From Myxococcales bacterium (GTDB lineage: Bacteria > Myxococcota > Myxococcia > Myxococcales > Anaeromyxobacteraceae), in NCBI GenBank assembly GCA_038320275.1, contig JBBQEB010000114.1, positions 1-12,877 of the forward strand: 12,877 nt of DNA. Reading direction: 5' to 3'. The notes beneath the pieces were generated by a model. It was not told the DNA's origin. It searched no databases and saw only the letters and a list, made by a program, of their open reading frames with translations. Of this stretch, positions 1-12,501 are shown in pieces; the stretch's first letter is position 1; each line of letters opens with the position of its first letter. Made by a program: the position numbers and the translations under genes.

Positions 1-2
1 TG

Positions 3-998
3 GAGCCCCTCCGCGAGGCGCGCCAGCACGGCACGGCAGCCGGAGCCAGCGCGGGGCTCCTCTGGTGGATCGGCCCCCAGGCGCTCACGGTGCGGGTCGA
101 GCCTCGCGGCGAGCGGCTCGACGCGGCGGGCGCCCCTGGGCGCGAACGGCTGGGGCTGGCCGTCTCCGCTTCCGACGACGTCGCGCTCGCGGGCAGCCGC
201 TTCCGGCTGCAGCCCGCGTTGCGCTGGGACAGGGAGGGGCCGTTCACCGGGGTGTCGGCGAAGCTGGGCGCCTCGGCTCGCCTGGCGGGGCCCGTCACCC
301 TTCGCGCCAACGGCGGCCATGGCTTCCGCGCGCCGAGCTTCGCGGAGCTGTACCTCTCGCAGGGGCTGCTCTCGGCCAATCCCGACCTCGTGCCCGAGGA
401 GTCCTGGTCGGCCGATGGGGCGCTGGTGGCCGAAGGGCGCCTGGGGCTCGCGTCGGCGGGGGTCTTCGCCCAGCTCTATCGCGACCTCATCGTCTACCAG
501 CCGGACTCCTTCCGCCGCTTCAAGCCGTTCAACGACGGCAAGGCCGCCTCGCGCGGGATCGAGCTGGAAGTCGCCACCGCGCCGGTGGGGCCCGCCGGGC
601 TTTCCGCCCAGGGGTCCTACACGCTCCTCGCAAGCGAGACCTTGCGCGGCGAGTCGGACGTGCTCGGGAAGGCGCTCCCTCATCGCGCGCGCCATCGCCT
701 GTTCGCACGCCTGAACGCCGGTCGCGGCCGCCTCGCCGCGCACGCCGAGGCGCACGCCGTCAGCTCGCAGTCCCTCGACCTGCGCAACTCGGCCTCCCTT
801 CGCGTTTCGGCCGCCTTCACCCTGAACCTCGGCGGCTCGATCCGCCTGCTGCGCAGCCCAGAGACCCTCCTCGCCCTCGAGGCGAAGAACCTCCTCGACG
901 ACCGTTCCATCCAGGACGGCTTCGGCAACCCGCTCCCCGGACGCATGGTGATGATCTCCGTGCGCATCGCCGGGGGAAAGGACGTGACCTCACCATGA
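3..998 (+). CDS. TonB-dependent outer-membrane receptor, C-terminal part (BtuB-like; truncated by window start)
   Basis: The frame of ORF 90..998 is open back to base 3. It has TBDR barrel motifs GFRAPSFAELY, NPDLVPEES and a terminal KNLLD...PLPGR segment, and lies upstream of an ABC uptake cassette. The substrate is inferred from context only. Confidence 0.9.
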   Translation, partial: EPLREARQHGTAAGASAGLLWWIGPQALTVRVEPRGERLDAAGAPGRERLGLAVSASDDVALAGSRFRLQPALRWDREGPFTGVSAKLGASARLAGPVTLRANGGHGFRAPSFAELYLSQGLLSANPDLVPEESWSADGALVAEGRLGLASAGVFAQLYRDLIVYQPDSFRRFKPFNDGKAASRGIELEVATAPVGPAGLSAQGSYTLLASETLRGESDVLGKALPHRARHRLFARLNAGRGRLAAHAEAHAVSSQSLDLRNSASLRVSAAFTLNLGGSIRLLRSPETLLALEAKNLLDDRSIQDGFGNPLPGRMVMISVRIAGGKDVTSP

Positions 999-2260
999 CG
1001 AAGCTCCCGCTGTTCGGCCTCACCCTCCTCGCGCTCGCCGCCTGCTCCAGCGAGAAGACCTGCTCCTCGGGCGAGAAGCTCATCGGCGACACCTGCTACG
1101 CCCTCCAGTCGGATCCCCTCAACTGCGGCTCCAAGGGGACCGCCTGCGGCGCTGGCCAGGGTTGCTCCGCCGGCGCCTGCGTCGACTGCACCTCGACGCC
1201 GGGCGCGTGCACCACCGACCTGCTCGCCGCCTGCTTCGACTCGAACCAGGTGCTTCCGCTCCGGGCCGACCTCGTCCAGAGCGGCGCTCCGTTCTCCGTC
1301 GACTCCGGACCGACCGCCTTCGCCAGGCTCGGGACGACCCTCTACGTGGCGAACAGCCTCTCGAGCACCATCTCCGCCATCACGCTGTCGCCACCGTCCG
1401 CCACGAGGGGCGCTAATGCCATCGCCGTCCGGTCCGGCGCGGCCGGCTCGGGTGACCTGGAGGGCCTCGCCGCCCACGGAGGGCTGCTGTGGGCGGCCAA
1501 CTCGGCGGCGGGAACGCTCGTCGCGATCGATGCTGCCAAGGGTACGGCGGTCGACGAGGTGGCGCTCGCCGCGAAGGCTGGAGACGCCACCCGGCCGCTG
1601 GGCATCGCTTTCGTGGACGCGCCCTCGAAGAAGGCCTACGTCGCGCTGAGCGGCACCGATGAGGTGGCCGTCGTGGACGTGACCACCGTACCCGGTGTGC
1701 GGCTGGTCGAGCGCATCTCGCTCGCCTCGCTCGCCACGCCCGGCGCCCTGGCCGGCCCCTCGCGCCTCCTCGCGACGGGGGGCAAGGTGTACGTGACGCT
1801 CAACAACGCGTTCGACGCCTCGTTCGCGCCGGTCGCGGGGGCGCAGGGGCGGCTCGCCGTGATCGACCCGGCCACCGACGCGGTGGTGGGTGCCGCGACG
1901 GACCTCGGGCTCGCCTGCTCCAATCCAAGCGGTCTGGCGATCTCTGGAACGACCCTCTGGGTCGGATGCGGCCGCCAGATCTTCGACCCGAAGACGTTCG
2001 CGGTGACCGGTCTCGCCGGGACTGCGCTCGTGCCGGTCGAGCTCGGCGGCGCCTCACCGGTCGCCGGGACGGCGCTCACCACCACGAGCGCGATCGGCGG
2101 GGTCGCCATCTGCGGCGAGCGGGGCTACGCTGCCGCGAGCGAGAGCGGGACGATGATCTCCTTCGATCCCAAAGCGCGGACGATCACGTCCTCGACCCTG
2201 GTCTGTCCCGCAAGCCCCGGCATGGGGAGCTTCGTCGCCGACGTGGCATGCGCGCGCTGA
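995..2260 (+). CDS. Lipoprotein with an N-terminal Cys-rich domain and a YncE/YVTN-like beta-propeller (421 aa)
   Basis: ATG at 995 overlaps the receptor stop (ATGA), with a purine-rich RBS GGAAAGGA just upstream. Signal peptide with lipobox LAA-C17, Cys-rich DPLNCGSKGTAC...C...C module, and blade-like repeats LYVANS, LWAANS, AYVALS, VYVTLN, LWVGC, GYAAAS. The upstream part of ORF 65..2260 is spurious. Confidence 0.85.
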   Translation: MTKLPLFGLTLLALAACSSEKTCSSGEKLIGDTCYALQSDPLNCGSKGTACGAGQGCSAGACVDCTSTPGACTTDLLAACFDSNQVLPLRADLVQSGAPFSVDSGPTAFARLGTTLYVANSLSSTISAITLSPPSATRGANAIAVRSGAAGSGDLEGLAAHGGLLWAANSAAGTLVAIDAAKGTAVDEVALAAKAGDATRPLGIAFVDAPSKKAYVALSGTDEVAVVDVTTVPGVRLVERISLASLATPGALAGPSRLLATGGKVYVTLNNAFDASFAPVAGAQGRLAVIDPATDAVVGAATDLGLACSNPSGLAISGTTLWVGCGRQIFDPKTFAVTGLAGTALVPVELGGASPVAGTALTTTSAIGGVAICGERGYAAASESGTMISFDPKARTITSSTLVCPASPGMGSFVADVACAR

Positions 2261-3120
2261 CCCACTCGCTCCCCCCCGTCCTCGCCGCGCTCGTCCTCGC
2301 GGCGGGGACGGCTGGGGCGGCCCCGGCCGCCGAGCGCGGCCCCGAGTGGCTCGGGCCCCCCGCGCCCGCCTCGCCCCGGCGCGTGGTCACCCTCGCCCCC
2401 AGCCTCACCGACATGGCGGTAGCGCTCGGCCATGCCGAGCTGCTCGTCGGCGTCACGCGCTACGACGACGCGCGCGAGGTGGCGAAGCTCCCGCGGGTGG
2501 GCGGCTTCCTCGACCCGAGCCCGGAGGCCGTCCTGGCGCTCCGGCCCGACCTCGTCCTCTGGATGACCGACGGCGGTGCGCTCGGGGCCGTCCGGCGCAT
2601 CGCCTCGCTGGGCGTCCCGGTGCGCGCCATCCCGGTGGTGAGCGTGGCCGACGTGCTCCGCGGCGCGCGGCTGGTGGGGAGCGCGCTGGGGGACGCCGCG
2701 GGCGGCGAGCGGCTGGCGCGCTCTCTGGAGGACGGGGTGGAAGCGGCGCGGCGGAGGGCGGCCGGTGAGCGGCGGGTGAGGGTCCTCTTCATCGTGGGGC
2801 GCGATCCGCTGGTGGTGGCGGGGCCGGGCAGCTTCCCCGATGAGCTCCTCCGGCTGGTGGGCGGGGTGAACGCGGTGAGGAGCGACCGACCCTGGCCCGT
2901 CTACCCGGTGGAGCGGGCCATTGCCGACGACCCGGCCCTCGTCATCGACGGTGCCGTGCTGGAGCCGCCCGAGGGCATGGCGCGCCTGGCAGCCATCCCG
3001 GCGGTGCGGCGGGGAGCCGTGCACCGGCTCCGGGACGACGCCGCCCTCCGGCCGGGGCCGCGGCTCCTGCAGGCGCTGGATGAGCTCGCGGGCGCGCTGC
3101 GAGAGGCGAGCGCACGGTGA
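2248..3120 (+). CDS. btuF: Periplasmic substrate-binding protein, BtuF/helical-backbone family (likely cobalamin-binding; 290 aa)
   Basis: ATG 2248 (MRALTHSLPPVLAALVLAAGTAGA signal peptide). Motifs RVVTLAPSLTD, LVGVT, VGGFLDPSPEAVLALRPDLVL, GPGSF..GGVN..WP and RPGPRL are typical of BtuF-like proteins. The symbol is family-level. Confidence 0.8.
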   Translation: MRALTHSLPPVLAALVLAAGTAGAAPAAERGPEWLGPPAPASPRRVVTLAPSLTDMAVALGHAELLVGVTRYDDAREVAKLPRVGGFLDPSPEAVLALRPDLVLWMTDGGALGAVRRIASLGVPVRAIPVVSVADVLRGARLVGSALGDAAGGERLARSLEDGVEAARRRAAGERRVRVLFIVGRDPLVVAGPGSFPDELLRLVGGVNAVRSDRPWPVYPVERAIADDPALVIDGAVLEPPEGMARLAAIPAVRRGAVHRLRDDAALRPGPRLLQALDELAGALREASAR

Positions 3121-4139
3121 GCCGCCGCCTCGCCGCGGTGGTGGTGCTGGGGCTCCTCGCCCTGGCGGCGGCGCTCGCCATCTCGTGCGCGCTGGGGGCG
3201 CAGCCCATCTCGCTCGCCCGGGCCTTCGCGGGAGGCGAGCCGGACCGGGCCATCCTCCTGGGACTGCGGCTGCCCCGGGCCCTGGTGGGCGCGCTCGTGG
3301 GGTGCGCGCTCGCCGCGGCGGGGACCGCCCTCCAGGCGCTCCTGCGCAATCCCCTGGCGGAGCCGTTCGTGCTGGGCGTCTCCGGCGGCGCGGCGCTGGG
3401 CGGGACGCTGGTGCTCCTCCTCGCCACCCTCGCCTCCCGCCTCGTCGCCGGGGGCGCGCTGCTGGGCTCGGCACCGCCGGTGGCGGCGGGCGCCATCGGC
3501 GGCGCGGCGGGCGCGACCGTCCTCGTCTTCGCGCTCGGCCGCGTCTCGGGCCGGCTCGTGCCCGAGGCCGCGCTCCTGGTGGGTGTCGTCTTCAACGCCT
3601 TCGCCGCCGCCGTCATCACGCTGGTGAAGGTGCTGGTGACGCCGGAGCAGGCGGCCCGCCTCCTCTACTGGCTCATGGGGGCCATCGGTTACGAGGGGAC
3701 GGAGACGATCGCGGTCGGCGCCGTCTGCGTGGGCCTGGCGGTGGGCGCGCTCCTCCTCTTGTCGGGGCGGCTCAACCTGCTCGCGCTGGGCGAGGACGAG
3801 GCGGCGAGCCTGGGCATCGACGTGGGCCGCTCCCGCGCGCTGGTGCTCCTCGCCGCCAGTGCCGCCACCGGGGCGGCGGTGGCGCTCTCCGGCCTGGTGG
3901 GCTTCGTCGGGCTCATCGTGCCGCACGCCGCCCGGCGGGTGCTGGGGCCGGACCACCGGCTGCTCGTCCCCGCCTCGGCGCTCTTCGGCGCTGCCTTCCT
4001 CGTGCTGGCGGACGCCCTGGCGCGGCTCGCCTTCGTGCCGCTGGGCACCGAGCCGCCGGTGGGCGCGCTCACCGCCTTCCTGGGCGGACCGCTCTTCCTG
4101 TGGCTCCTCCGCCGCGCCGAGCGGCCGGCGCGCGGGTAG
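3117..4139 (+). CDS. btuC: FecCD/BtuC-family ABC transporter permease
   Basis: GTGA overlap with the upstream stop. Motifs LRLPR, QALLRNPLAEPFVLGVSGGA, LGEDEAASLG, GFVGLIVPH, PVGALTAFLGGPLFLWLL and multiple TM segments. Confidence 0.9.
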   Translation: MSRRLAAVVVLGLLALAAALAISCALGAQPISLARAFAGGEPDRAILLGLRLPRALVGALVGCALAAAGTALQALLRNPLAEPFVLGVSGGAALGGTLVLLLATLASRLVAGGALLGSAPPVAAGAIGGAAGATVLVFALGRVSGRLVPEAALLVGVVFNAFAAAVITLVKVLVTPEQAARLLYWLMGAIGYEGTETIAVGAVCVGLAVGALLLLSGRLNLLALGEDEAASLGIDVGRSRALVLLAASAATGAAVALSGLVGFVGLIVPHAARRVLGPDHRLLVPASALFGAAFLVLADALARLAFVPLGTEPPVGALTAFLGGPLFLWLLRRAERPARG

Positions 4140-4150
4140 GATGCCCCGCC

Positions 4151-5167
4151 GTGACCCCTCGCCGCTCCGCCCTGCTCGTCTCCGCCCTCTGCGTCGCCGC
4201 CGTCGCGGCGGCCCTCGGCGCGACCCGGTACGTGGAGGCGCGCAGCCCGGGCCTGCTCATGGGCGCCGCGCCGGAGTTCCGGCCCCTTCCGCTGCGCCGC
4301 TTCGACGTCCACCAGCGCGTCACCCCGGGCACGGTGGCGGATGCGGTGCGCATCGCGGAGGCGAACGGCATCGACGGCTTCGTGAACCTCTCCGGCGGCC
4401 ACCTCGGCGGCGGGCTGGAGGAGAGCCTCGAGGCGGCGCGCCCCTTCGGCCGCCGCGTCATCGTGTTCATGGAGCTCGACCTCGAAGGCTGCTGCGGCGC
4501 CGGCTGGTCGGCCCGCGAGGTCGACCGGCTCGCGCGCGGCAAGGCGCTCGGGGCGCGCGGGCTGCACGCCTTCGAGCCCACCGAGGATGGACCCGCGGGC
4601 GCTCCCGCGCTCGACGCGCCGCAGCTCGACCCGATCTGGAGCGCCTGCGCGCGCCTCGCGCTTCCGGTCGCGATCGCCGCGGAGGGTCCGGCCTGGCTCC
4701 GGCTGGTGGAGCACAATCCCGACGTCCGCTTCATCGCCTCGCGCTTCGGCGGCTCGGAGCGCGATCCCGGCGCCGCGGCGGCGCTGCTAGAGCGGCTCCC
4801 CAACCTCGTCCTCGACACGGCGGGGGCGGTCCCTGAGCTCGGGCTCGGCGCCGAAGCAGCGCGGCGAGCCATCCTCGCCCATCCCGAACGCGTGCTCCTT
4901 GGAACCGGCCTGCAATATCTCCAGGGGGACGGCTACAAGGCGCTGGTTTACGGCGCGGGACCGCCCGGCGGCTCGGAGGCGATGCGCCGCTTCTTCGAAG
5001 GCATCTACCGCTTCTACGAGACCCGCGACGCGGAGATCCCGAGCCCCACCCCGGCGCAGGGGCGCGCTCCGCTCGCGGGCATGGGGCTGCCGCGCGACGC
5101 GCTCGACAAGCTCTACCACCGCAACGCCGAGAGCCTGCTGGGACTCGGCGACCGGTGGGCCCCCTGA
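4151..5167 (+). CDS. Amidohydrolase_2-fold (TIM barrel) protein with N-terminal signal/anchor and degenerate metal site (338 aa)
   Basis: Probable GTG start at 4151, 11 nt after the btuC stop. N-terminus TPRRSALL plus a hydrophobic stretch. Family-like segments FDVHQR, GARGL, LDPIWSACARLALPV, HNPDVRFI, PNLVLDT, ERVLLGTG and KLYHRNAESLL. Confidence 0.8.
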   Translation: MTPRRSALLVSALCVAAVAAALGATRYVEARSPGLLMGAAPEFRPLPLRRFDVHQRVTPGTVADAVRIAEANGIDGFVNLSGGHLGGGLEESLEAARPFGRRVIVFMELDLEGCCGAGWSAREVDRLARGKALGARGLHAFEPTEDGPAGAPALDAPQLDPIWSACARLALPVAIAAEGPAWLRLVEHNPDVRFIASRFGGSERDPGAAAALLERLPNLVLDTAGAVPELGLGAEAARRAILAHPERVLLGTGLQYLQGDGYKALVYGAGPPGGSEAMRRFFEGIYRFYETRDAEIPSPTPAQGRAPLAGMGLPRDALDKLYHRNAESLLGLGDRWAP

Positions 5168-5967
5168 GCTTCACCTCCTCGGCGCTGGCTTCGGCGGGGC
5201 CCCTCGTCGACGTGCGAGGCGTCTCGTTCTGGCACGGCGCGCTGCAGGCCCTGGCGGACGTCTCCTTCACCGCCGGGGCCGGAGAGCTGGTGGGCCTGGT
5301 GGGCCCGAACGGCGCCGGAAAGAGCACGCTCGTGAGACTCGTCGCCGGCCTCGCGGCACCCGCGGCCGGCCTGGTGCGCCTGGGCGGGCTCGATCCCTTC
5401 CGCGCGCCGCGGCGCGAGGTAGCGCGCGTGGCCGCGCTCGTACCCCAGGAGCCGAGCGTGGCCTGGCCCTTCACGGTGCGCGAGGTGGTGATGATGGGCC
5501 GCGCGCCGCGCCAGGGGCTCCTCGCGCGCGCCTCCCCGCTCGACCAGGGCGCGGTGGAGGGCGCGCTCCAGGCCTGCGACCTCACGCGCCTCGCCGGACG
5601 CAGGGTGGACGCGCTCTCGGGCGGCGAGCGGCGCCGGGTCTTCTTCGCGCGCGCGCTGGCGCAGGAGCCCCGCGTCCTGTTGCTGGACGAGCCCACCGCC
5701 TTCCTCGACCTCGCCCATCAGGTGGCGGTGATGAAGATGGCGGAGGTAGCCGCACGGGCCGGCCTGTGCGTGGTGGCGGTGCTCCACGACCTCAACCTCG
5801 CCGCCGGCTCGTGCAGCCGGCTGGTGGTGATGTCCGGCGCGCGGGTGGTCGCGGAGGGCCCTCCGCGCGAGGTACTCACCGCGGAGCGGGTGCGCGAGGT
5901 GTGGGGCGTGCCGGTCTGGCGCGGCGAGCACGGCCGCACCGGGATGCCGATCATCCTGCCGGCGTGA
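5155..5967 (+). CDS. btuD: ABC transporter ATP-binding protein, BtuD/FepC/FecE family
   Basis: Walker A GPNGAGKS, Q-loop VPQE, signature LSGGE, Walker B LLLDEP, then LDLAHQ and VLHDLNLA typical of cobalamin/siderophore ATPases. The exact start is uncertain. Confidence 0.9.
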   Translation: MGPLSFTSSALASAGPLVDVRGVSFWHGALQALADVSFTAGAGELVGLVGPNGAGKSTLVRLVAGLAAPAAGLVRLGGLDPFRAPRREVARVAALVPQEPSVAWPFTVREVVMMGRAPRQGLLARASPLDQGAVEGALQACDLTRLAGRRVDALSGGERRRVFFARALAQEPRVLLLDEPTAFLDLAHQVAVMKMAEVAARAGLCVVAVLHDLNLAAGSCSRLVVMSGARVVAEGPPREVLTAERVREVWGVPVWRGEHGRTGMPIILPA

Positions 5968-6014: not shown

Positions 6015-6890
6015 CTACTGCGACATGAGGAAGATCTTGATGGTCAGGCCAAACATTCGCTCGGTGGGCGCCTCGATGCGCTGGCGGTACGCGAGGTCGA
6101 CGGCGAAGCCGCTGGTGGTGATGATCCCGAGGCCGCCCGACCAGAAGGAGGCGCGCCGGGTGTCGTCCTTGAGGTAGCCGGCGCGCACCGGGAAGAAGTC
6201 GCCGAGGAGCAGCTCCCCGCCGACGGCGTAGGCGCTGGTGAGCTTCTCGGCGCGGTCGTAGTCGCCGCGCCAGTCGACCGCGAGGTGGAAGCGGCGGTCG
6301 TCGCCCACCGACGCGCCGACGCCCAGCCCTCGCGGCTGCACGCTCTTGTGGCCCGTCGAGAGCAGGTTGTAGCCGCTCACGCCCAGCGCCAGCCAGCCCG
6401 GCTTCAGGAAGGCGGAGGCATCCACGTTGGCGGCGCTCATGTGCTGTCCGCCGGGGCCGTCGACGTTCTGGTACTTGCCCGTGCCGCCCAGGAAGAAGGT
6501 CCGTCCCAGCGGGACGGCGAGCGCCATGTGATAGAGGCTGCCGAGCCACGGTCCGCCCAGCACGCGCGTGTAGCCGAAGCCGCCGGTCACCGAGCCTGTC
6601 TCGGAGTCCACCACCGACCCGCCATACGCCTGCAGGGCCGTCCCGTCGCCCACCCGGTCGAGCGTCCACTGCGACTCGACGGCGTAGCGGCGGAGGGCCG
6701 CGAGCGAGGCCGCGTTGGTGAAGATGCCGTCGTTCCCCGCGGCGACGCCGCGATACGCCCCCATCGACAGCGCACGCGCGCCGAGGAGGTCGGGGATGCC
6801 GGCCGGCAGCGGCGGGTCGGCCCCTTCCGCCGGCACCGCAGCGAGGGTGAAACAGGCCACGAGCGCCAGGAAGCCAGGGGATCTCCGCAC
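6015..6890 (-). CDS. Putative outer-membrane beta-barrel protein, PorV/FadL-like N-terminus (291 aa)
   Basis: The real gene is the last 291 codons of the 1617-aa ORF. GTG start gives a signal peptide (RRSPGFLALVACFTLAAVPAEG). GARALSMG...NAASLA motif, then alternating amphipathic strands (VRAGY, WSGGLG, VDLAY, FGLTIKIF). Confidence 0.7.
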   Translation of the reverse strand: MRRSPGFLALVACFTLAAVPAEGADPPLPAGIPDLLGARALSMGAYRGVAAGNDGIFTNAASLAALRRYAVESQWTLDRVGDGTALQAYGGSVVDSETGSVTGGFGYTRVLGGPWLGSLYHMALAVPLGRTFFLGGTGKYQNVDGPGGQHMSAANVDASAFLKPGWLALGVSGYNLLSTGHKSVQPRGLGVGASVGDDRRFHLAVDWRGDYDRAEKLTSAYAVGGELLLGDFFPVRAGYLKDDTRRASFWSGGLGIITTSGFAVDLAYRQRIEAPTERMFGLTIKIFLMSQ

Positions 6891-6896
6891 CGCGCG

Positions 6897-6925
6897 ACAG
6901 TAGCCGCCACCCCCGCCGGCGGCAA
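6897..6925 (-). promoter_or_regulatory. Putative sigma70-type promoter TTGCCG-N17-TACTGT, 6 nt upstream of the GTG start
   Basis: On the minus strand, -35 at 6925-6920, a 17-nt spacer and -10 at 6902-6897; no SD between -10 and the start. Confidence 0.55.
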
Positions 6926-6965
6926 TTCCACGCGATGTCGAACGGGGCATGCTGCCCCGCCCCGT

Positions 6966-7076
6966 CGGCTGAGCCGCCGGGTCCCCACCCCTGCCTGAAG
7001 GGCTCCGCCCTCCCCCGCTTCGCGGGGGACCCCTCCCGTTCGCGCGGCCTTCCCGGGCCCCGGGTGAGAGGCAGGG
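6966..7076. repeat. Cluster of inverted repeats (REP-like or structured intergenic element)
   Basis: CGGC-TGA-GCCG (6966-6976), GGGC-TCC-GCCC (7000-7010), TCCCCCGC-TTC-GCGGGGGA (7011-7029), and an outer pair CCCTGCCT (6989-6996)/AGGCAGGG (7069-7076). Confidence 0.5.
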
Positions 7077-7109
7077 CGCGAGCGTGGCCGCCCCGATAGA
7101 AGGCCGCCC

Positions 7110-7883
7110 ATGAGCGCCTCCTCCTTCCGTCCCCCCGGCGCGCGGGCGATCGCGGCGCTGCTCGCCGCCGCCTGCGCCCTTCCGGCGCTGGCCTACCTCC
7201 CGCCTGGGCCCGCCATCCTGAAGCGCGTCGCCCAGCGCCGCGCCGACCTGGGCGGTGGAGCGCTGGAGGTGCGCGGCACGGTGGTGTTCTCCGGCGAGGC
7301 TGCGCGCCGGGCCGCGGCCGCCACCGGCCTGCAGCTCGCCGGCGCGGACCTGACCTGTCCGGCGGTGATCACGGTGAAGGCGCCGGGCCGCTGCCGCCTC
7401 GAGCTCCTGCCCCCGGGGGCCGCGGCCTCGGAGCGCCCTTCTCTTTCCGTGAAGGCAGGCCGGCTGCTGGGCCACCGCGGCCTCGAGACGGTACCGGCGG
7501 CGGAGGCGGCGGTCACCGGGCTCTGCGCGCTCCTCGGCGAGCGCGGCCTGGAGGCACTGTCGACCGGGCTCGCCGCCCGCGGCGTGTCCCTGAGCGAGGT
7601 CGCGCTGGGTCGGCTGGAAGGGCGTGTCGCCTGGGTCCTCGGCGGCAGGCCCACGGAGGCGAAGCCGCAGGCCTGGTTCGACAAGGCCGCGCTGCAGCCC
7701 ATCCGGCTGGTGGCGCCGGTGGCGGGCGCGCTCCTCGACGTGCGGCTGCTCGACTTCGGCTCCCCAGTGGGGGCCGACATCTTCCCGCGGGCGCTCGAGG
7801 TCTGGTCGGGTAAGGAGCGGCTGGTGCGCTTCACCACCGAGGCGCTCACCACCAACGCTCGCGCGCCGGACGCGCTGTTCTAA
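7110..7883 (+). CDS. Exported hypothetical protein (possibly LolA-like fold)
   Basis: 257-aa ORF filling the gap before priA. Signal peptide AIAALLAAACALPALA|Y. Segments VKAPGRCRLEL, AWVLGG, AWFDKAALQPIRL and FPRALEVW resemble LolA-like beta-sheet proteins (pattern recognition only). Confidence 0.7.
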   Translation: MSASSFRPPGARAIAALLAAACALPALAYLPPGPAILKRVAQRRADLGGGALEVRGTVVFSGEAARRAAAATGLQLAGADLTCPAVITVKAPGRCRLELLPPGAAASERPSLSVKAGRLLGHRGLETVPAAEAAVTGLCALLGERGLEALSTGLAARGVSLSEVALGRLEGRVAWVLGGRPTEAKPQAWFDKAALQPIRLVAPVAGALLDVRLLDFGSPVGADIFPRALEVWSGKERLVRFTTEALTTNARAPDALF

Positions 7884-7910
7884 ACCAGGAGCCGCCGGCA
7901 GCGCAGCCCC

Positions 7911-10121
7911 ATGCTCGTCGAGGTCGCCGTCGCCGCCGCCGTGCGCGGCACCTTCACCTACCGCGTCCCGCCCGCGCTCGAGCCCCGCGTGGACGCGGGG
8001 ACGCGGGTGGCCGTCCCGTTCGGGAGGAGCCGCCGCGCCACCGGCTACGTCCTCTCCTTCCCGGCGGCCGCACCGGAGGGGGTCGCTCTCCGAGACATCG
8101 CGGGCGTGCTCGACGCCTTTCCGGCCTTCACTCCGGAGCTGGTGGAGCTCCTGCGCTGGGCCGAGGAATACTACCTCTGCGCGCCCGGCGAGCTCTTCCG
8201 CGCCGCGCTCCCCCCTGGCCTCAACAGGCGCGCGGGCGCAGCCGCGCCCCGCCGGCGCGGAGTCCCTTACGCTGCTCCGGCGGAGGGCGCCGCCGAGGCC
8301 TTGCCCTCCCTGGCTCGCCGGGCCCGGTCCCAGCACGCGGTGCTCGAGTACCTCCTCGCACGAGGCCGCATCCCGGTGGAGGAGCTGCGGGCGGCCTTTC
8401 CCTCCGGTCGGGCGGCGCTGATCGCCCTGCGCGATCGCGGCCTGGCGCTGCTGGACGAGGAGACGCCGTTGCCCGCCGGCGCGCTGCTGGACGGCGCTGT
8501 GCAGGCCCCGCCCCTCACCGCCGAGCAGGACGAGGCGGTGGAGGCGGTGTGCGGCGCGCTCGGCGGGTACGCGCCCTTCCTCCTCCACGGTATCACCGGG
8601 TCGGGCAAGACGGAGGTGTACCTGCACGCCATCGCGCGGGCCCGGGCCGCCGGCAAGGGGGCGCTGGTGCTCGTCCCGGAGATCGCGCTCACCCCGCAGC
8701 TCGCCGGCCGCTTCCGCGCGCGCTTCGGGAGCGACGTCGCGCTCCTCCACAGCGGGCTCTCCGACCCGGAGCGCCATGCCGAGTGGCTGCGGCTGCGGAG
8801 TGGCGAGGCGCGCATCTGCGTGGGCGTGCGCAGCGCCATCTTCGCCCCGGTGCAGGACCTCGCCATCGTCGTCGTCGACGAGGAGCACGACGCCTCCTTC
8901 AAGCAGGAGGACGGCCCCGCCTATCAGGCGCGCGACCTCGCGGTGGTGCGGGCGAAGCAGGGCGCGGCGGTCTGCCTCCTGGGCTCGGCGACGCCGTCCC
9001 TGGAGTCGCTGGAGAACGCGCGCCGCGGGCGCTACCGGCTCCTCTCGCTCACCCGCCGCATCGACGATCGTCCGCTGCCCGAGGTCCAGGTAGTGGACCT
9101 CGCCCGGCATCGCCCCCGCGGCGAGCCGGCGGCCGGCCTGCTCTCCCCCCCGCTCACCGCAGCGCTGGAGGACACGCTCGCGGCGGGGCGCCAGTCGATC
9201 CTCTTCCTCAACCGGCGCGGGTTCCAGACGCTGGTGGTGTGCGAGGCCTGTGGCCGCGAGGAGCGCTGCGAGAGCTGCTCCGTCTCGCTCACCTACCACC
9301 GGCGCAAGGGCGTCCTCCTGTGCCATTACTGCGGCCGGCGGGAGCGGGTGACCCCGATCTGCCCGGCCTGCGGCGGCCCGCGGCGCGGGGTGGGCGTCGG
9401 AACGGAGCAGGTCGAGGCGGCGGTACGGGCGCTCCTGCCGAGCGCGCGCGTGGCGCGGCTCGACCGCGACGCGGTGGGCTCGGCGGACGACGTCGCTGCC
9501 ATCCTGGGCCGCTTCGCCCGGCGCGAGCTGGACGTCCTGGTGGGGACCCAGATGGTGACGAAGGGCCATGACTTTCCCGGCGTGACGCTGGTGGGGGTGG
9601 TCCTCGCCGACACCGCCCTCGCGCTGCCCGACTTCCGGGCGGGCGAGCGGACCTTCCAGCTCCTCACGCAGGTGGCGGGCCGCGCCGGGCGGGGCGACGA
9701 CCCCGGCCGCGTGCTGGTGCAGACCTGGAACCCGGGCTCGCCCGCCATCGCCTGCGCCGCCGGGCATGACTACGCCCGCTTCGTGGAGGGCGAGCTCGCC
9801 TCGCGTGAGGCCGCGGGATGGCCGCCCTACGCCCGGCTGCTGGCGGTGCGGGTGGAGGGCGGCGAGGTCCCGGCGCGCGCGTGCGCCGAGCTGCTCGCCG
9901 CTGCGGCGCGGCCGGCCCTCTCGGCGGGAGGGCTCACGCTCCTGGGCCCGGCCCCAGCGGCGCTGGAGAAGCTGCGGGACAGGTACCGCTGGCACCTCCT
10001 CTTCCGGGCGTCCACGGTGGAGCCCCTGCGCCGCGTCCACCGCCAGCTCGAGCCGGTGGCCAGGCGGCCGCCGCGAGGAGCCGAGGTGCGCTTCGACGTG
10101 GACCCGTACTCGATGATGTGA
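7911..10121 (+). CDS. priA: Primosomal protein N' (replication restart helicase PriA)
   Basis: N-terminal FTYRVP/RVAVPFG, Walker A GITGSGKTEVY, LVPEIALTPQ, VVVDEEHD, SATPSLES, four CxxC pairs (CEAC, CESC, CHYC, CPAC), GTQMVTKGHDFP, QVAGRAGR and terminal DVDP. Confidence 0.97.
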   Translation: MLVEVAVAAAVRGTFTYRVPPALEPRVDAGTRVAVPFGRSRRATGYVLSFPAAAPEGVALRDIAGVLDAFPAFTPELVELLRWAEEYYLCAPGELFRAALPPGLNRRAGAAAPRRRGVPYAAPAEGAAEALPSLARRARSQHAVLEYLLARGRIPVEELRAAFPSGRAALIALRDRGLALLDEETPLPAGALLDGAVQAPPLTAEQDEAVEAVCGALGGYAPFLLHGITGSGKTEVYLHAIARARAAGKGALVLVPEIALTPQLAGRFRARFGSDVALLHSGLSDPERHAEWLRLRSGEARICVGVRSAIFAPVQDLAIVVVDEEHDASFKQEDGPAYQARDLAVVRAKQGAAVCLLGSATPSLESLENARRGRYRLLSLTRRIDDRPLPEVQVVDLARHRPRGEPAAGLLSPPLTAALEDTLAAGRQSILFLNRRGFQTLVVCEACGREERCESCSVSLTYHRRKGVLLCHYCGRRERVTPICPACGGPRRGVGVGTEQVEAAVRALLPSARVARLDRDAVGSADDVAAILGRFARRELDVLVGTQMVTKGHDFPGVTLVGVVLADTALALPDFRAGERTFQLLTQVAGRAGRGDDPGRVLVQTWNPGSPAIACAAGHDYARFVEGELASREAAGWPPYARLLAVRVEGGEVPARACAELLAAAARPALSAGGLTLLGPAPAALEKLRDRYRWHLLFRASTVEPLRRVHRQLEPVARRPPRGAEVRFDVDPYSMM

Positions 10122-10148
10122 ATCGAGCGGACGGTCGTGGCCTGGCCC

Positions 10149-10178
10149 TTGGCGCGCTCGCCGCCCCGCCTTTAAGCT
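10149..10178 (+). promoter_or_regulatory. Putative promoter TTGGCG-N18-TAAGCT for def
   Basis: -35-like at 10149-10154 and -10-like at 10173-10178, in the only AT-rich patch of the intergenic gap, 9 nt before ATG 10188. Confidence 0.45.
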
Positions 10179-10187
10179 CACAGGGTC

Positions 10188-10736
10188 ATGATCCGCGAAA
10201 TCGTCATCTGGCCAGACCCCGTCCTCAAGAAGATCGCGAAGCCGATCGATCGCGTGGACGAGACCATCCGCAAGCTCCTCGACGACATGGCCGAGACCAT
10301 GTACGCCGCGGACGGCGTGGGGCTGGCGGCGCCGCAGGTCGCGGAGCTCGTGCGCTGCATCGTCATCGACACCTCGCCGCGGCAGGAGGGGCAGACGCTC
10401 ATCCACCTGGTGAACCCGCGCATCGTGAAGACCGAGGGCGTCACCACCTACAACGAGGGCTGCCTCTCCATCCCGGGCGAGGCCGAGGAGGTGGAGCGCG
10501 CGGCCAAGGTCTGGGTGCGCGCCCAGGACCGCTCCGGCACCGAGCGCGAGCTGGAGTGCGAGGGGCTCCTCGCCATCGCGGTGCAGCACGAGTATGACCA
10601 CCTCGATGGCACGCTCTTCGTCGACCACCTCTCCAGCCTGAAGCGCGAGCTCATCCGCCGCCGCATGAAGAAGCTGAAGGCCGATCGCGCCGCCGAGGGG
10701 ATCCGCGGCGCTGCGCATCACGAAGAGGCGCTGTAG
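10188..10736 (+). CDS. def: Peptide deformylase
   Basis: All three PDF motifs are present: GVGLAAPQ, EGCLS and QHEYDHLDG. Confidence 0.97.
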   Translation: MIREIVIWPDPVLKKIAKPIDRVDETIRKLLDDMAETMYAADGVGLAAPQVAELVRCIVIDTSPRQEGQTLIHLVNPRIVKTEGVTTYNEGCLSIPGEAEEVERAAKVWVRAQDRSGTERELECEGLLAIAVQHEYDHLDGTLFVDHLSSLKRELIRRRMKKLKADRAAEGIRGAAHHEEAL

Positions 10737-10747
10737 AGGCGATCCGG

Positions 10748-11446
10748 TCAGGTGGGTGGCGCGGCGCCTCCCTTTTGCCTCGCCACACCCCGCTTCGGGC
10801 AGAGGTCCTCCAGCACGCAGCGCGAGCACGCGGGAGCCCTGGCGAAGCAGGTCCGGCGCCCGTGCCACACGAAGAGCTGGTGTCCCGCCCCCCAGCGCTC
10901 GCGCGGGACGAGCGCGCGAAGTCGCTCCTCCACGCGATCGGGCGCAAGCTCCCGGGTGAAGCCGAGCCTGCGGGCCACGCGCCCCACGTGCGTGTCGACC
11001 GGGAAGGCCTCCTCCGCGCCCAGCTGGATCAGCACCACCCCCGCCGTCTTCTGCCCCACCCCCGGCAGCGACTCCAGGGCCGCCCGCTCGCGCGGCACGC
11101 TACCCCCGTGATCGCGGGCGACCGCGCGCATGGCGAGGACGATGTTGCGGGCCTTGGCGCGGAACAGCCCGCACGATTTCACGTACGGCCAGAGCTCCTC
11201 CGGCTCCGCCGCTGCGTAGGCCTCCGCCGAGGGAAAGCGCCCGAAGAGCGCCGGCGTGACGAGGTTCACGCGCGCGTCGGTACACTGCGCGGAGAGGATG
11301 ACCGCGACGAGGAGCTCGACGTCGCGCTCGAAGTGGAGGGCGATGCGCGCCTCGGGGAGCGCCCGCTCCAGCCTGTCGAGCGCCTCGCCGGCTCGCGCCC
11401 GCTCGCCGGCCGTGGGCGCCCTCGCCTTGCGTGCCCTCCGTGCCAC
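10748..11446 (-). CDS. nth: Endonuclease III (HhH-GPD DNA glycosylase/AP lyase)
   Basis: [17 protein letters not shown], Hh[10 protein letters not shown] with the catalytic Lys, VDTHV, and a [4Fe-4S] motif C-x6-C-x2-C-x5-C ([17 protein letters not shown]). Confidence 0.95.
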
Positions 11447-11455
11447 CGTGCCCCG

Positions 11456-11465
11456 ATGCTACCAT
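11456..11465. promoter_or_regulatory. Overlapping divergent extended -10 elements (bidirectional promoter for nth and ltaE)
   Basis: ATGCTACCAT reads TGcTACCAT on + (7 nt before the ltaE ATG) and TGgTAGCAT on - (9 nt before the nth GTG), within a 26-bp intergenic gap. Confidence 0.55.
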
Positions 11466-11472
11466 CCGCGGG

Positions 11473-12501
11473 ATGAAGGTCATCGATCTGCGATCCGACA
11501 CCGTCACGCGCCCCACGCCGGCGATGCGCGAGGCGATGGCCCGGGCCGAGGTGGGCGACGATGTCTACGGCGAGGACCCCACCGTGCGCCGCCTCGAGGA
11601 GCGCTCCGCGGCGCTGCTCGGGAAGGAGGCCGCGCTCTTCGTCCCGAGCGGCACCATGGCGAACCAGCTCGCGCTCGCCGTGCTCGCGCGCGCCGGCGAC
11701 GAGGTGATCTGCGAGGTGGGCGCGCACCTCTACGCCTTCGAGGGCGGCGGCATGGCGGCGCTCTGGGGCGTGCAGGCGAGGCCGTTGACGGGCGAGCGCG
11801 GCATCCTCGATCCAGCCGCGGTGGAGGCTGCCATCCGCCCCGACGACGCGCACTTCGCCCGCACGCGCGCGGTCGCGATCGAGAATACGCACAACCGCGG
11901 CGGAGGGATCGCGTGGCCGCTCGCGGCGGTGCGGGCGGTCGCGGAGGTCGCCTCCCGCCGGGGTCTCCACCTCTACATGGACGGCGCGCGCCTCATGAAC
12001 GCCGTGGTCGCCCTGGGCGTCAGCGCCGCCGAGGTGGCCGCCCCGGCCACGCTCGCCTCCCTCTGCTTCTCCAAGGGGCTGGGCGCTCCGGTCGGCTCGG
12101 CGCTGGCGGGGCCGCGGGAGCTCATCTCCGAGGCCCGGCGGGTCCGCAAGCGCCTGGGCGGCGGCATGCGCCAGGCCGGCATCCTCGCCGCGGCGGCCCT
12201 CCACGCGCTCGACCATCACGTCGAGCGGCTCGCCGAGGACCACCGAAACGCGAGCCGGCTGGGGGAGCTCCTCGCAGGGCTCCCCGGCGGACGCCTCCAC
12301 TTCCCCGTCGAGACGAACCTCGTCTTCGTGCGCTTCGAAGGACGCGCCGCCCCCGAGCTCGCCCTCAGGCTGCGCGAGCTGGGGGTCCTCTGCAGCGCGG
12401 AGGGCTCACGTCCGGATCTCCTCCGGCTCGTCACCCACCTCGACGTCTCGGCGGATGACGTCGAGGACGCCGCGCGCCGCTTCGCGCGGGCCCTGGCGTG
12501 A
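11473..12501 (+). CDS. ltaE: Low-specificity L-threonine aldolase (PLP-dependent)
   Basis: Start [39 protein letters not shown]-lysine motif [20 protein letters not shown] and RLVTHLDV. Confidence 0.93.

What the first reader, a model, noticed from the sequence alone, without database searches (positions are those of the whole stretch)
4151..5167. Probable exported pseudo-amidohydrolase inserted between the permease and ATPase genes
Known: Amidohydrolase_2 enzymes use DxHxH (strand 1), His after strand 5 (PVxxH), His after strand 6 (xxAH) and Asp on strand 8 (GT/SD). Seen: D52-V-H-Q-R (second His to Arg), PVAIAAEG (His absent, following loop very short), FIASRF (His to Arg) and LLGTGL (Asp to Gly). 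The ORF is otherwise intact, keeps the fold motifs (PNLVLDT, KLYHRNA), overlaps btuD, has an RR-containing signal-like N-terminus (TPRRSALL, possibly Tat) and a vicinal CC. Inference: a catalytically dead or repurposed TIM barrel, with Arg replacing metal ligands (anion/phosphate pocket?), acting as a periplasmic binding, chaperone or editing component of the transporter. I know of no described transporter with such a subunit. This is the best novelty candidate in the window.
Basis: partly seen in the sequence, partly recalled or inferred. Interest (0 to 1): 0.72.

Follow-up and report, generated by a model that had tools for sequence, protein, structure and literature searches.

The report
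Dead amidohydrolase inside B12 uptake operon
An intact gene wedged between the permease and ATPase genes of a vitamin B12 uptake operon encodes an enzyme-like barrel protein that has lost four of its five catalytic residues, is predicted to be exported and inactive, and is likely kept as a non-essential helper of B12 uptake.

Summary
ORF 4151-5167 is a real 338-aa Amidohydro_2 (PF04909) TIM-barrel gene between a FecCD permease and an ABC ATPase. It reads H54-Q-R56, A176, R198 and G253 where intact orthologues have HxH, His, His and Asp, and its beta5-alpha5 loop has 10 residues instead of 49.

The context is a B12 uptake operon: btuB-like receptor, lipoprotein, btuF, btuC, this gene, btuD. A cobalamin riboswitch leads it in 17 of 17 related operon loci. 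In the window's own genome the riboswitch lies on the contig that appears to abut the window.

The gene keeps this position in 22 of 27 myxococcal loci. Only 4 of 26 genomes read keep the full catalytic set. Loss arose at least 7 times. Two whole genera and one congener have the same operon without the gene.

Degenerate copies are not neutral: dN/dS is 0.24-0.43, and 71 positions stay at least 90% conserved, including a clade-specific Cys-Cys.

The best reading is a catalytically dead, exported pseudoenzyme kept as a dispensable accessory of B12 uptake. Its function is inferred. The Tat signal and the Arg anion pocket are not supported.

The parts
3..998 (+). C-terminal 331 aa of a BtuB-like TonB-dependent receptor, cut by the contig start
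   Evidence: PF00593 at E 2.9e-27. The GC3 phase changes near nt 950. The N-terminal piece (signal plus Plug) and an RF00174 riboswitch lie on own-genome contig C80. In relatives the two pieces map head to tail, e.g. L076 925-1767 then 1789-2757.
995..2260 (+). 421-aa lipoprotein with a Cys-rich N-part and a beta-propeller; function unknown
   Evidence: An ATGA overlap with the receptor stop, and an N-terminus MTKLPLFGLTLLALAAC with a lipobox. NCBIfam MXAN_6577-like Cys-rich at 1.8e-10, with weak YVTN, DUF6923 and SGL matches. Conserved in the related operons.
2248..3120 (+). BtuF-like periplasmic binding protein with a signal peptide
   Evidence: PF01497 at 5.4e-18. NCBIfam BtuF NF002894 at 2.8e-21, below the cut-off. 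N-terminus MRALTHSLPPVLAALVLAAGTAGA.
3117..4139 (+). BtuC-like FecCD permease
   Evidence: PF01032 at 4.5e-77. The best NCBIfam matches are BtuC models, below the cut-off.
4151..5167 (+). The finding: a 338-aa Amidohydro_2-fold pseudoenzyme
   Evidence: AF2 gives pLDDT 92.3 and pTM 0.85. The best Foldseek match in PDB is 3irs_A at E 2.8e-9.
4151..4243 (+). N-terminal helix (residues 3-31): a Sec-type signal peptide or signal anchor
   Evidence: AF2 helix 3-31. A 20-residue uncharged stretch at residues 6-25, Kyte-Doolittle mean 2.25, with N flank MTPRR.
4304..4318 (+). D52-V-H54-Q-R56: strand-1 motif with the second His replaced by Arg (CGC)
   Evidence: D52 is kept in all 37 rows of alignment A1 (invariant column) and in all 42 degenerate and all 14 intact Cys-Cys-clade rows. 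H54 is kept in 58 of 62 rows.
4490..4495 (+). Vicinal Cys114-Cys115 in the beta3-alpha3 loop, specific to the operon-linked clade
   Evidence: Present in 55 of 56 clade rows and in 0 of 6 outgroup rows.
4676..4708 (+). A176 (strand-5 His lost) and the shortened beta5-alpha5 loop, 10 residues against 49
   Evidence: In the intact form P0012 this loop is ordered, with helices 195-198 and 208-213.
4742..4744 (+). R198 (CGC) in place of the strand-6 His
4907..4909 (+). G253 (GGC) in place of the strand-8 Asp
5155..5967 (+). BtuD-like ABC ATPase; its first in-frame start overlaps the pseudoenzyme stop by 13 nt
   Evidence: PF00005 at 1.1e-29. The best NCBIfam match is the corrinoid ABC transporter ATPase, below the cut-off. 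A 4-nt stop/start overlap is seen in L003, L004, L006, L012, L013 and L014.

Best explanation
ORF 4151-5167 is an intact gene for an Amidohydro_2-fold barrel protein that lacks four of the five catalytic residues kept by its intact orthologues; it is predicted to be exported and catalytically dead, and it is likely retained as a dispensable, non-catalytic periplasmic accessory of a cobalamin-riboswitch-led btuB-lipoprotein-btuF-btuC-X-btuD uptake operon.

Shown:
- the fold;
- the missing residues and the missing loop;
- the conserved position in the operon;
- riboswitch control in relatives;
- repeated independent loss of the catalytic set within this clade only;
- purifying selection on degenerate copies;
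- clean absence of the gene from otherwise identical operons.

Inferred:
- Export by Sec, with the barrel on the periplasmic side.
- Loss of the ancestral activity. That enzyme was a metal-dependent hydrolase or decarboxylase of the ACMSD-like class, substrate unknown.
- A remaining role that depends on the conserved non-catalytic surface: the Cys-Cys loop, W119, R122/E123/R126, D52/H54, N79 and D222.

My best guess for that role is handling or holding corrinoid, or docking to another periplasmic Btu component. The effect would improve uptake without being required for it.
For: Fold and family:
- PF04909 at 45.2 bits.
- AF2 pLDDT 92.3.
- Foldseek matches to 3irs, ACMSD, LigI-like, LigJ and LigY.

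Catalytic columns:
- The query reads H,R,A,R,G against H,H,H,H,D.
- The residues sit at the C-terminal ends of strands 1, 5, 6 and 8 of the model.

Operon:
- Gene order is conserved in 22 of 27 myxococcal loci.
- RF00174 lies on the operon strand in 17 of 17 operon loci and in 0 of 3 paralogue loci.
- The own-genome riboswitch plus receptor N-terminus is on contig C80, which maps immediately upstream of the window's first ORF.
- Junctions are tight or overlapping.

Degeneration is clade-specific:
- In the 50%-identity representative library, 2 of 11 Cys-Cys rows keep HHHHD against 105 of 112 other rows.
- Among the family's genomes read, 4 of 26 are intact.
- Parsimony needs at least 7 intact/degenerate changes and 6 loop changes on a 62-row tree.

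Selection:
- dN/dS is 0.24-0.43 in 8 degenerate pairs, with upper bootstrap limits of 0.57 or less. One intact pair gives 0.28.
- 71 positions are at least 90% identical among 42 degenerate rows.
- 30 positions that are at least 90% conserved in 14 intact rows fall below 60% in degenerate rows. These are the ligands plus a surrounding shell.
- The query departs from the 85% consensus at only 2 positions, D246E and R328S.
- No in-frame stop occurs in any of 41 matched places.

Export:
- An uncharged N-terminal helix is present in 56 of 56 clade rows.
- The N flank is more positive than the C flank in 46 of 56 rows.
- Outgroup members carry a Tat-like SRRAWL or a lipobox.
Against: No binding, localisation or expression data exist.

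The gene is absent from genus g2 (0 of 37) and g11 (0 of 13), although the orthologous permease is there (35 of 37 and 13 of 13). In 5 of 5 such loci read, including a congener (G047), permease and ATPase genes are directly adjacent. The transporter therefore does not need it.

The protein evolves about 3 to 9 times faster in dN than the permease. It is only 46-58% identical to its closest relatives, even within the genus. Selection on the window's own branch therefore cannot be measured.

dN/dS below 1 could reflect selection for folding of an expressed exported protein rather than for a function.

dS is near saturation in the more distant pairs.

The tree is a quick search, with 17 of 59 inner branches unsupported.

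The link of contig C80 to the window rests on homology across a contig break.
Confidence: 0.55

Rival explanations
1. A functionless relic. The enzyme became unnecessary in this family and the gene is on its way out. The frame and fold would be kept only by indirect constraints: translational coupling to btuD, avoidance of polarity, and avoidance of a misfolded exported protein.
For: The gene has been removed cleanly from whole genera and from one congener. Catalytic residues were lost many times in different ways. One genus-g1 copy has even lost the Cys-Cys (G040). The rate is high and the query's end branch is long, at 0.57. The stop overlaps the btuD start.
Against: dN/dS is 0.24-0.43 in copies that were already degenerate at their common ancestor, the same range as the intact pair. 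71 positions are at least 90% conserved across 42 degenerate rows; many of them are charged surface-type residues, plus the clade-specific Cys-Cys. The degenerate state persists through whole genera: 7 of 7 read in g4 and 8 of 8 in g1. Coupling constraints alone would keep the frame open but not the amino acids.
Confidence: 0.3
2. Still an enzyme. A different catalytic centre would be built from residues that remain conserved at the barrel mouth (D52, H54, N79, D110, C114, C115, D222), possibly binding a metal through Cys. The loss of the classical ligands would then not mean loss of activity.
For: D52 is invariant in the 37-row alignment A1 and kept in all 56 Cys-Cys-clade rows. H54 is kept in 58 of 62 rows. 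The Cys-Cys is kept in 55 of 56 clade rows. N79 and D222 are at least 95% conserved in degenerate rows. All lie after strands 1, 2, 3 and 7 of the model, on the catalytic face. From memory, some amidohydrolase-superfamily subtypes use a Cys or Glu ligand from strand 2 or 3.
Against: The whole shell around the classical site relaxes together with the ligands, 30 positions in all, and the lid-like loop is deleted. These residues are equally conserved in intact members, so they are not a replacement that arose with the loss. I had no coordinates with which to check the geometry.
Confidence: 0.08
3. Arg residues that replaced the metal ligands would form an anion or phosphate pocket, in a Tat-exported binding or editing subunit of the transporter.
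For: R56 and R198 do sit at former ligand positions. Arg at position 56 recurs in several lineages.
Against: Position 198 is R, N, D, G, L, A or H among degenerate copies, and position 56 is R, Q, E or I. Both Arg codons are CGC, one transition from CAC in a genome with 75% G+C, so recurrence fits mutation bias. A twin arginine is present in only 26 of 56 rows. The transporter exists without the protein.
Confidence: 0.05

Closest known systems
Amidohydro_2 (PF04909) metal-dependent enzymes of the ACMSD-like class: gamma-resorcylate and dihydroxybenzoate decarboxylases (2dvt, 3s4t/4qro), ACMSD, IDCase, LigY, LigJ, LigI-like proteins, and the uncharacterised BB4693 (3irs)
   Same: They share the (beta/alpha)8 barrel and detectable sequence homology. 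Intact orthologues carry HxH, His, His and Asp in the matching columns.
   Different: This copy lacks four of those five residues and the beta5-alpha5 loop. It has an N-terminal export helix and a clade-specific Cys-Cys. It sits inside a B12 uptake operon. No solved relative matches by plain sequence search at E up to 10.
Cobamide remodelling enzymes CbiZ (amidohydrolase, PF01955) and CbiR (phosphodiesterase, AP endonuclease 2 TIM barrel, PF01261), which are encoded near cobamide genes
   Same: They are hydrolase-type genes linked to corrinoid loci. CbiR is also predicted to be a metal-dependent TIM barrel (PMC7733943, passages read).
   Different: There is no sequence relation: only PF04909 is found. 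CbiZ and CbiR are cytoplasmic as far as I recall, whereas this protein has an export signal. Its presence and state show no clean link with CobS or CbiZ in the family. The own genome has neither, and two of the four genomes with an intact copy lack CobS.
Accessory B12-binding proteins of Bacteroides btu loci (BtuG, BtuH, BtuJ1, DUF4465 proteins)
   Same: They are non-transporter, exported proteins encoded within B12 uptake loci. They long had unknown function and turned out to bind B12 (abstracts of PMC8941943, PMC10404256 and PMC6143338 in the listings).
   Different: The folds, the phylum and the compartment all differ (surface lipoproteins there). Binding by the present protein is only a hypothesis.
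BtuM, which ligates the corrin cobalt with a cysteine and decyanates B12
   Same: It is a precedent for a conserved Cys in a B12 uptake protein acting as a cobalt ligand (abstract of PMC6072759).
   Different: BtuM is an integral membrane S-component-like transporter and is unrelated in sequence. A role for Cys114/Cys115 here is untested.

Membership tests
Amidohydro_2 (PF04909) | Profile score above Pfam's gathering cut-off | tested here: met
   45.2 bits against 26.4, E 1.4e-11, residues 124-332.
Amidohydro_2 (PF04909) | (beta/alpha)8 barrel like solved members | tested here: met
   AF2 pLDDT 92.3. Foldseek probability 1.00 to 3irs, ACMSD, LigJ, LigY and 2dvt.
Amidohydro_2 (PF04909) | H-x-H at the end of strand 1 | tested here: not met
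   H54-Q-R56. The family column for the second His reads H in all 20 intact rows.
Amidohydro_2 (PF04909) | His after strand 5 | tested here: not met
   A176. The column aligns with the His of 7wjr in the profile alignment.
Amidohydro_2 (PF04909) | His after strand 6 | tested here: not met
   R198. The column aligns with the His of 3irs and 7wjr.
Amidohydro_2 (PF04909) | Asp after strand 8 | tested here: not met
   G253, in LLGTGL against LFGTD. It is therefore a descendant of the family by homology but not a catalytic member.
Cobalamin-regulated btuB/btuFCD uptake operon | Cobalamin riboswitch (RF00174) upstream on the operon strand | tested here: met
   17 of 17 related operon loci. None lies within the window itself, because the contig starts inside btuB. 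The own-genome riboswitch is on contig C80, and its adjacency to the window is inferred from homology.
Cobalamin-regulated btuB/btuFCD uptake operon | TonB-dependent receptor, Peripla_BP_2 binding protein, FecCD permease and ABC ATPase in one transcription direction | tested here: met
Cobalamin-regulated btuB/btuFCD uptake operon | Components reach NCBIfam equivalog cut-offs for BtuB, BtuF, BtuC and BtuD | tested here: not met
   The best models are the B12 ones, but all fall below their cut-offs. The substrate assignment rests on the riboswitch.
Cobalamin-regulated btuB/btuFCD uptake operon | Transport of cobalamin or other corrinoids | not testable with these tools
   This needs uptake assays.
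Tat-exported proteins | Conserved twin arginine before the hydrophobic stretch | tested here: not met
   RR is present in 26 of 56 clade rows, and at least one Arg or Lys in 54 of 56.
Sec signal peptide or signal anchor | Positively charged N flank followed by an uncharged hydrophobic stretch | tested here: met
   56 of 56 clade rows have a stretch of 19-28 uncharged residues. AF2 predicts a helix at 3-31. No dedicated predictor was available, and cleavage and sidedness were not tested.
CbiZ (PF01955) / CbiR (PF01261) | Match to the family profile | tested here: not met
   Only PF04909 is reported at E up to 0.01.

The most novel reading that the evidence does not exclude
The Cys-Cys clade of exported Amidohydro_2 barrels is a new class of periplasmic corrinoid-handling protein. 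It would hold B12, or change its ligation through Cys-cobalt or His-cobalt ligation at the old active-site mouth, between the BtuB-lipoprotein pair and BtuF. The ancestral enzyme chemistry has become vestigial and has been discarded again and again.
Probability: 0.15. Interest if true: 0.75.

Novelty: new variant of a known kind. Interest (0 to 1): 0.5.

Why it matters
B12 uptake outside Enterobacteria and Bacteroides is poorly charted. Here a soil and sediment bacterial family carries a riboswitch-led operon with two unexplained exported proteins: a Cys-rich propeller lipoprotein and this barrel.

The barrel is a natural experiment. Intact, partly degenerate, fully degenerate and deleted states all occur within one family of genomes. 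That makes the question "what does a dead enzyme still do?" open to comparison.

One named member, listed for Anaeromyxobacter paludicola (P0028), carries the intact form.

If the protein binds corrinoid, it adds a new fold to the list of B12-handling proteins. If it does nothing, it is a well-documented case of slow gene death inside an essential operon.

Tried and rejected
Tat export was rejected.

The Arg anion pocket was rejected.

A link to cobamide remodelling through co-occurrence gave no clean pattern. CobS occurs in 24 of 92 genomes and CbiZ in 9 of 92. The own genome has neither, and the genomes with intact copies are split 2 and 2 for CobS.

A plain sequence search of PDB gave 0 hits at E up to 10. 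The profile search gave 3irs at 7e-7.

Rfam on the window gave 0 matches at E up to 1.

I first read the upstream region as one gene of 731 to about 1100 aa. The Pfam call on that read-through and a tblastn with it (no hit) were misleading. GC3 phase showed two genes, and searches corrected this.

Complex prediction (BtuF mature part with the barrel) was not available: the queue was full. No fold was made, so nothing can be said about binding.

Sequencing runs: no RNA holder was listed.

Earlier findings of this scan: none by place, sequence or words.

The ESM Atlas search with the intact form returned only generic "Amidohydrolase 2" clusters.

Literature searches found no paper describing an Amidohydro_2 protein or a pseudoenzyme in a btu operon:
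- amidohydrolase, btuCD, cobalamin riboswitch, Anaeromyxobacter;
- amidohydrolase, cobalamin riboswitch, btuF, pseudoenzyme;
- Anaeromyxobacter, cobamide, btuCD, corrinoid uptake, vitamin B12 transport;
- cobamide remodeling, CbiR, CbiZ, btuFCD.
I saw only listings and abstracts, plus passages of PMC7733943.

Split tblastn matches in L024 and L025 affect several genes of those contigs at once. I took them as assembly indels, not as pseudogenes.
Full report
OBSERVATION. Bases 4151-5167 hold a 338-codon ORF with a GTG start, 11 nt after the permease stop.

- TPRRSALL at 2-9;
- D52-V-H54-Q-R56;
- E-G-C114-C115;
- PVAIAAEG from 172;
- FIASRF from 194;
- PNLVLDT from 217;
- LLGTGL from 249;
- KLYHRNA from 320.

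The ORF is a gene, not a chance frame of a 75% G+C sequence:
- It matches Pfam Amidohydro_2 above the cut-off, 45.2 against 26.4 bits.
- It has 36 homologues at 30-58% identity among 5.8 billion clusters.
- Its GC1/GC2/GC3 of 0.80/0.55/0.92 resembles its neighbours, whereas the overlapping long ORFs do not.

CONTEXT. The neighbours on the same strand are as follows.
- A Peripla_BP_2 binding protein at 2248-3120, with a signal peptide.
- A FecCD permease at 3117-4139.
- An ABC ATPase at 5155-5967. Its first in-frame start overlaps the ORF's stop by 13 nt.

I first misread the region upstream as one long gene. The third-position GC phase switches near nt 950, which shows two genes:
- The C-terminal 331 residues of a TonB-dependent receptor at 3-998 (PF00593). 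A full-length relative scores best with the TonB-B12 model, below its cut-off.
- A 421-residue lipoprotein at 995-2260. It has a lipobox, a Cys-rich part and weak beta-propeller matches.

The window has no Rfam match. In relatives, however, a cobalamin riboswitch lies on the operon strand just before the receptor gene in 17 of 17 operon loci searched. It is absent from 3 of 3 loci of non-operon paralogues.

The window's genome has one such riboswitch, on contig C80. It is followed by the signal and Plug part of a receptor that runs off the contig end. In relatives, that piece and the window's first ORF map head to tail on one gene. C80 therefore almost certainly abuts the window.

The unit is thus: riboswitch, btuB-like receptor, lipoprotein, btuF, btuC, X, btuD. 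The NCBIfam equivalog cut-offs are not reached.

THE FAMILY AND THE MISSING RESIDUES. I aligned the 36 homologues and then added orthologues cut from related loci.

Intact members read DVHQH, LPVAxH followed by a 49-residue loop, FxGxHFG and LFGTD. The query reads H,R,A,R,G at the five positions and has 10 loop residues.

In the AF2 model (pLDDT 92.3, pTM 0.85) these positions sit at the C-terminal ends of strands 1, 5, 6 and 8. A helix at 3-31 precedes the barrel.

Foldseek finds Amidohydro_2 structures only: 3irs, ACMSD, LigI-like, LigJ, LigY and 2dvt.

A profile alignment puts the family's strand-5 and strand-6 His on the His residues of a solved dihydroxybenzoate decarboxylase (7wjr).

An intact orthologue (P0012) models equally well, at pLDDT 94. 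Its extra loop is ordered, and it is closest to gamma-resorcylate and dihydroxybenzoate decarboxylases, LigY, ACMSD and IDCase. The ancestral enzyme was therefore a metal-dependent hydrolase or decarboxylase of that class. Its substrate is unknown.

HOW COMMON IS THE DEAD FORM?
- Position: in 22 of 27 myxococcal loci the gene lies next to the permease and/or ATPase genes. The other 5 are paralogues in other contexts or contig ends.
- Age of the arrangement: a distant locus (L021; 34% identity here, permease 52%) has the same order and a riboswitch, with an intact site and no Cys-Cys.
- Distribution: 32 of 92 genomes of the family have the gene.
- State: of 26 genomes read in full, 4 are intact (three in genus g3, one in g6). 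The other 22 are degenerate: g1 8, g4 7, g9 3, g10 3 and g7 1. One further copy is partial, and five genomes were not fetched.
- Independent origins: on a 62-row tree built without the loop columns, parsimony needs at least 7 changes between intact and degenerate and 6 changes of loop length. Single ligand columns changed 9-12 times, but H54 only twice. This was a quick search, with 17 of 59 inner branches unsupported.
- Clade specificity: among the 149 best representatives of a 1.84-billion-protein library, 123 fill all five columns. Of these, 105 of 112 without the Cys-Cys keep HHHHD, against 2 of 11 with it. Kin are not independent, so this is a contrast and not a test.
- Dispensability: the orthologous permease is present in 81 of 92 genomes. 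That includes g2 (35 of 37) and g11 (13 of 13), where the gene was not found (0 of 37 and 0 of 13). In 5 of 5 such loci read, including a congener of the window's genome, permease and ATPase genes are directly adjacent.

IS IT DECAYING NEUTRALLY? No.
- Nei-Gojobori dN/dS in 8 pairs of copies that are both degenerate is 0.24-0.43, with bootstrap upper limits of 0.57 or less. One intact pair gives 0.28 (0.20-0.39).
- In the same genome pairs the permease gives 0.05-0.18 and the ATPase 0.10-0.19. The barrel therefore evolves several-fold faster than its neighbours in both states.
- Across 42 degenerate rows, 71 positions are at least 90% identical. They include D52, H54, N79, D110, C114, C115, W119, R122, E123, R126, D222, R238, H244 and R247.
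- 30 positions that are at least 90% conserved in 14 intact rows drop below 60% in degenerate rows. These are the four ligands plus a shell: R67, R151, D155, D179, N201, D202, E204, R226, E229, R232, S298, T300, P301, Q303 and W306, given as the intact consensus residue with query numbering.
- The query departs from the clade's 85% consensus at only two positions.
- None of 41 matched places has an in-frame stop.

Limits:
- dS is close to saturation beyond the nearest pairs.
- The window's own branch cannot be measured, because its nearest relative is 58% identical.
- Selection for foldability alone could give similar numbers.

EXPORT.
- All 56 clade rows have 19-28 uncharged residues after a short basic N flank.
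- The N flank is the more positive one in 46 of 56 rows.
- A twin arginine is present in only 26 of 56 rows, so Tat is unlikely.
- A more distant homologue has a Tat-like SRRAWL and another has a lipobox, so export seems general in this branch of the family.
- Whether the helix is cleaved or anchors the protein is open.

MECHANISM. I commit to this reading, at about 0.55. The protein is exported. The old metal site and its lid are gone, so the ancestral reaction is lost. What is kept is a non-catalytic property of the barrel mouth and the beta3-alpha3 region carrying the Cys-Cys. This property would help, but is not needed for, corrinoid passage between the outer-membrane receptor with its lipoprotein and BtuF.

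The parts that are shown and the parts that are inferred are listed under Best explanation.

The rivals are:
- a relic kept open by indirect constraints (0.3);
- a still-active enzyme with other residues (0.08);
R56, R198 and G253 are single A-to-G transitions from His and Asp codons, and the replacing residues differ among lineages.

COMPARISON WITH WHAT IS KNOWN.
- By descent it belongs to Amidohydro_2. By the defining catalytic residues it fails four of five tests, so I file it as a degenerate offshoot and not as an enzyme of that family.
- CbiZ and CbiR are hydrolases tied to corrinoid loci but are unrelated in sequence (PMC7733943, passages).
- Bacteroides BtuG, BtuH and BtuJ show that unexplained exported proteins in btu loci can be B12 binders (abstracts).
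- BtuM shows Cys-cobalt ligation in an uptake protein (abstract).
- Four literature searches found no description of an Amidohydro_2 protein in a btu operon.

NOT DONE. The complex predictor was unavailable. No RNA run was listed. I had no model coordinates, no signal-peptide predictor and no codon-model software.

Noticed in passing
window 995-2260 (+): A 421-aa lipoprotein (lipobox LAAC) with an MXAN_6577-like Cys-rich part and weak YVTN/DUF6923 beta-propeller matches. It overlaps the stop of the btuB-like receptor gene by 4 nt and is conserved in the related operons. A propeller lipoprotein next to btuB recalls BtuG of Bacteroides, but no homology to BtuG was tested.
   Followed up: partly
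window 3-998 (+) and own-genome contig C80 (L083 1-1205): The BtuB-like TonB-dependent receptor gene is cut by a contig break. The riboswitch and the Plug domain lie on C80, and the last 331 residues lie in the window. The long ORFs 2..2260 and 65..2260 in the ORF list are a read-through of two genes in different frames.
   Followed up: yes
window 6015-10868 (-): A 1617-aa ORF with no Pfam family, and only a weak PorV/PorQ-like match at its C-terminal end (NCBIfam 3.2e-4). It is syntenic next to btuD on the opposite strand in most related loci, and its C-terminal 260 residues are 33-66% identical.
   Followed up: no
window 10748-11446 (-) and 11431-12501 (+): An endonuclease III-like HhH-GPD gene and a GntG-family / low-specificity threonine aldolase gene. 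Both are ordinary and also syntenic in relatives.
   Followed up: no
L024 and L025: In these two related contigs several genes at once give split tblastn matches: the pseudoenzyme, the upstream region queried as up731 (receptor plus lipoprotein), the 1617-aa ORF, endonuclease III in L024, and the threonine aldolase in L025. For the pseudoenzyme gene the coordinates of its two matches (the L024 coordinates, and the two-part match of genome G062) show that they lie in different frames. This looks like assembly indel error rather than gene decay.
   Followed up: partly
L017 6869-8002, L015, L019, L023 and protein P0038: The nearest paralogues outside the btu operon keep the full catalytic set and the long loop, lack the Cys-Cys, and carry a lipobox (L017) or a Tat-like signal (P0038). 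L017 lies after a Ser/Thr kinase gene and L015 lies beside an aromatic amino-acid lyase gene. About 400 representative clusters match the profile at E of 1e-30 or better, so this exported Amidohydro_2 branch is large and uncharacterised.
   Followed up: partly
own genome (G000): No CobS and no CbiZ were found in the window's genome, which is 90.7% complete. The organism probably cannot attach a lower ligand and so depends on importing complete cobamides.
   Followed up: partly
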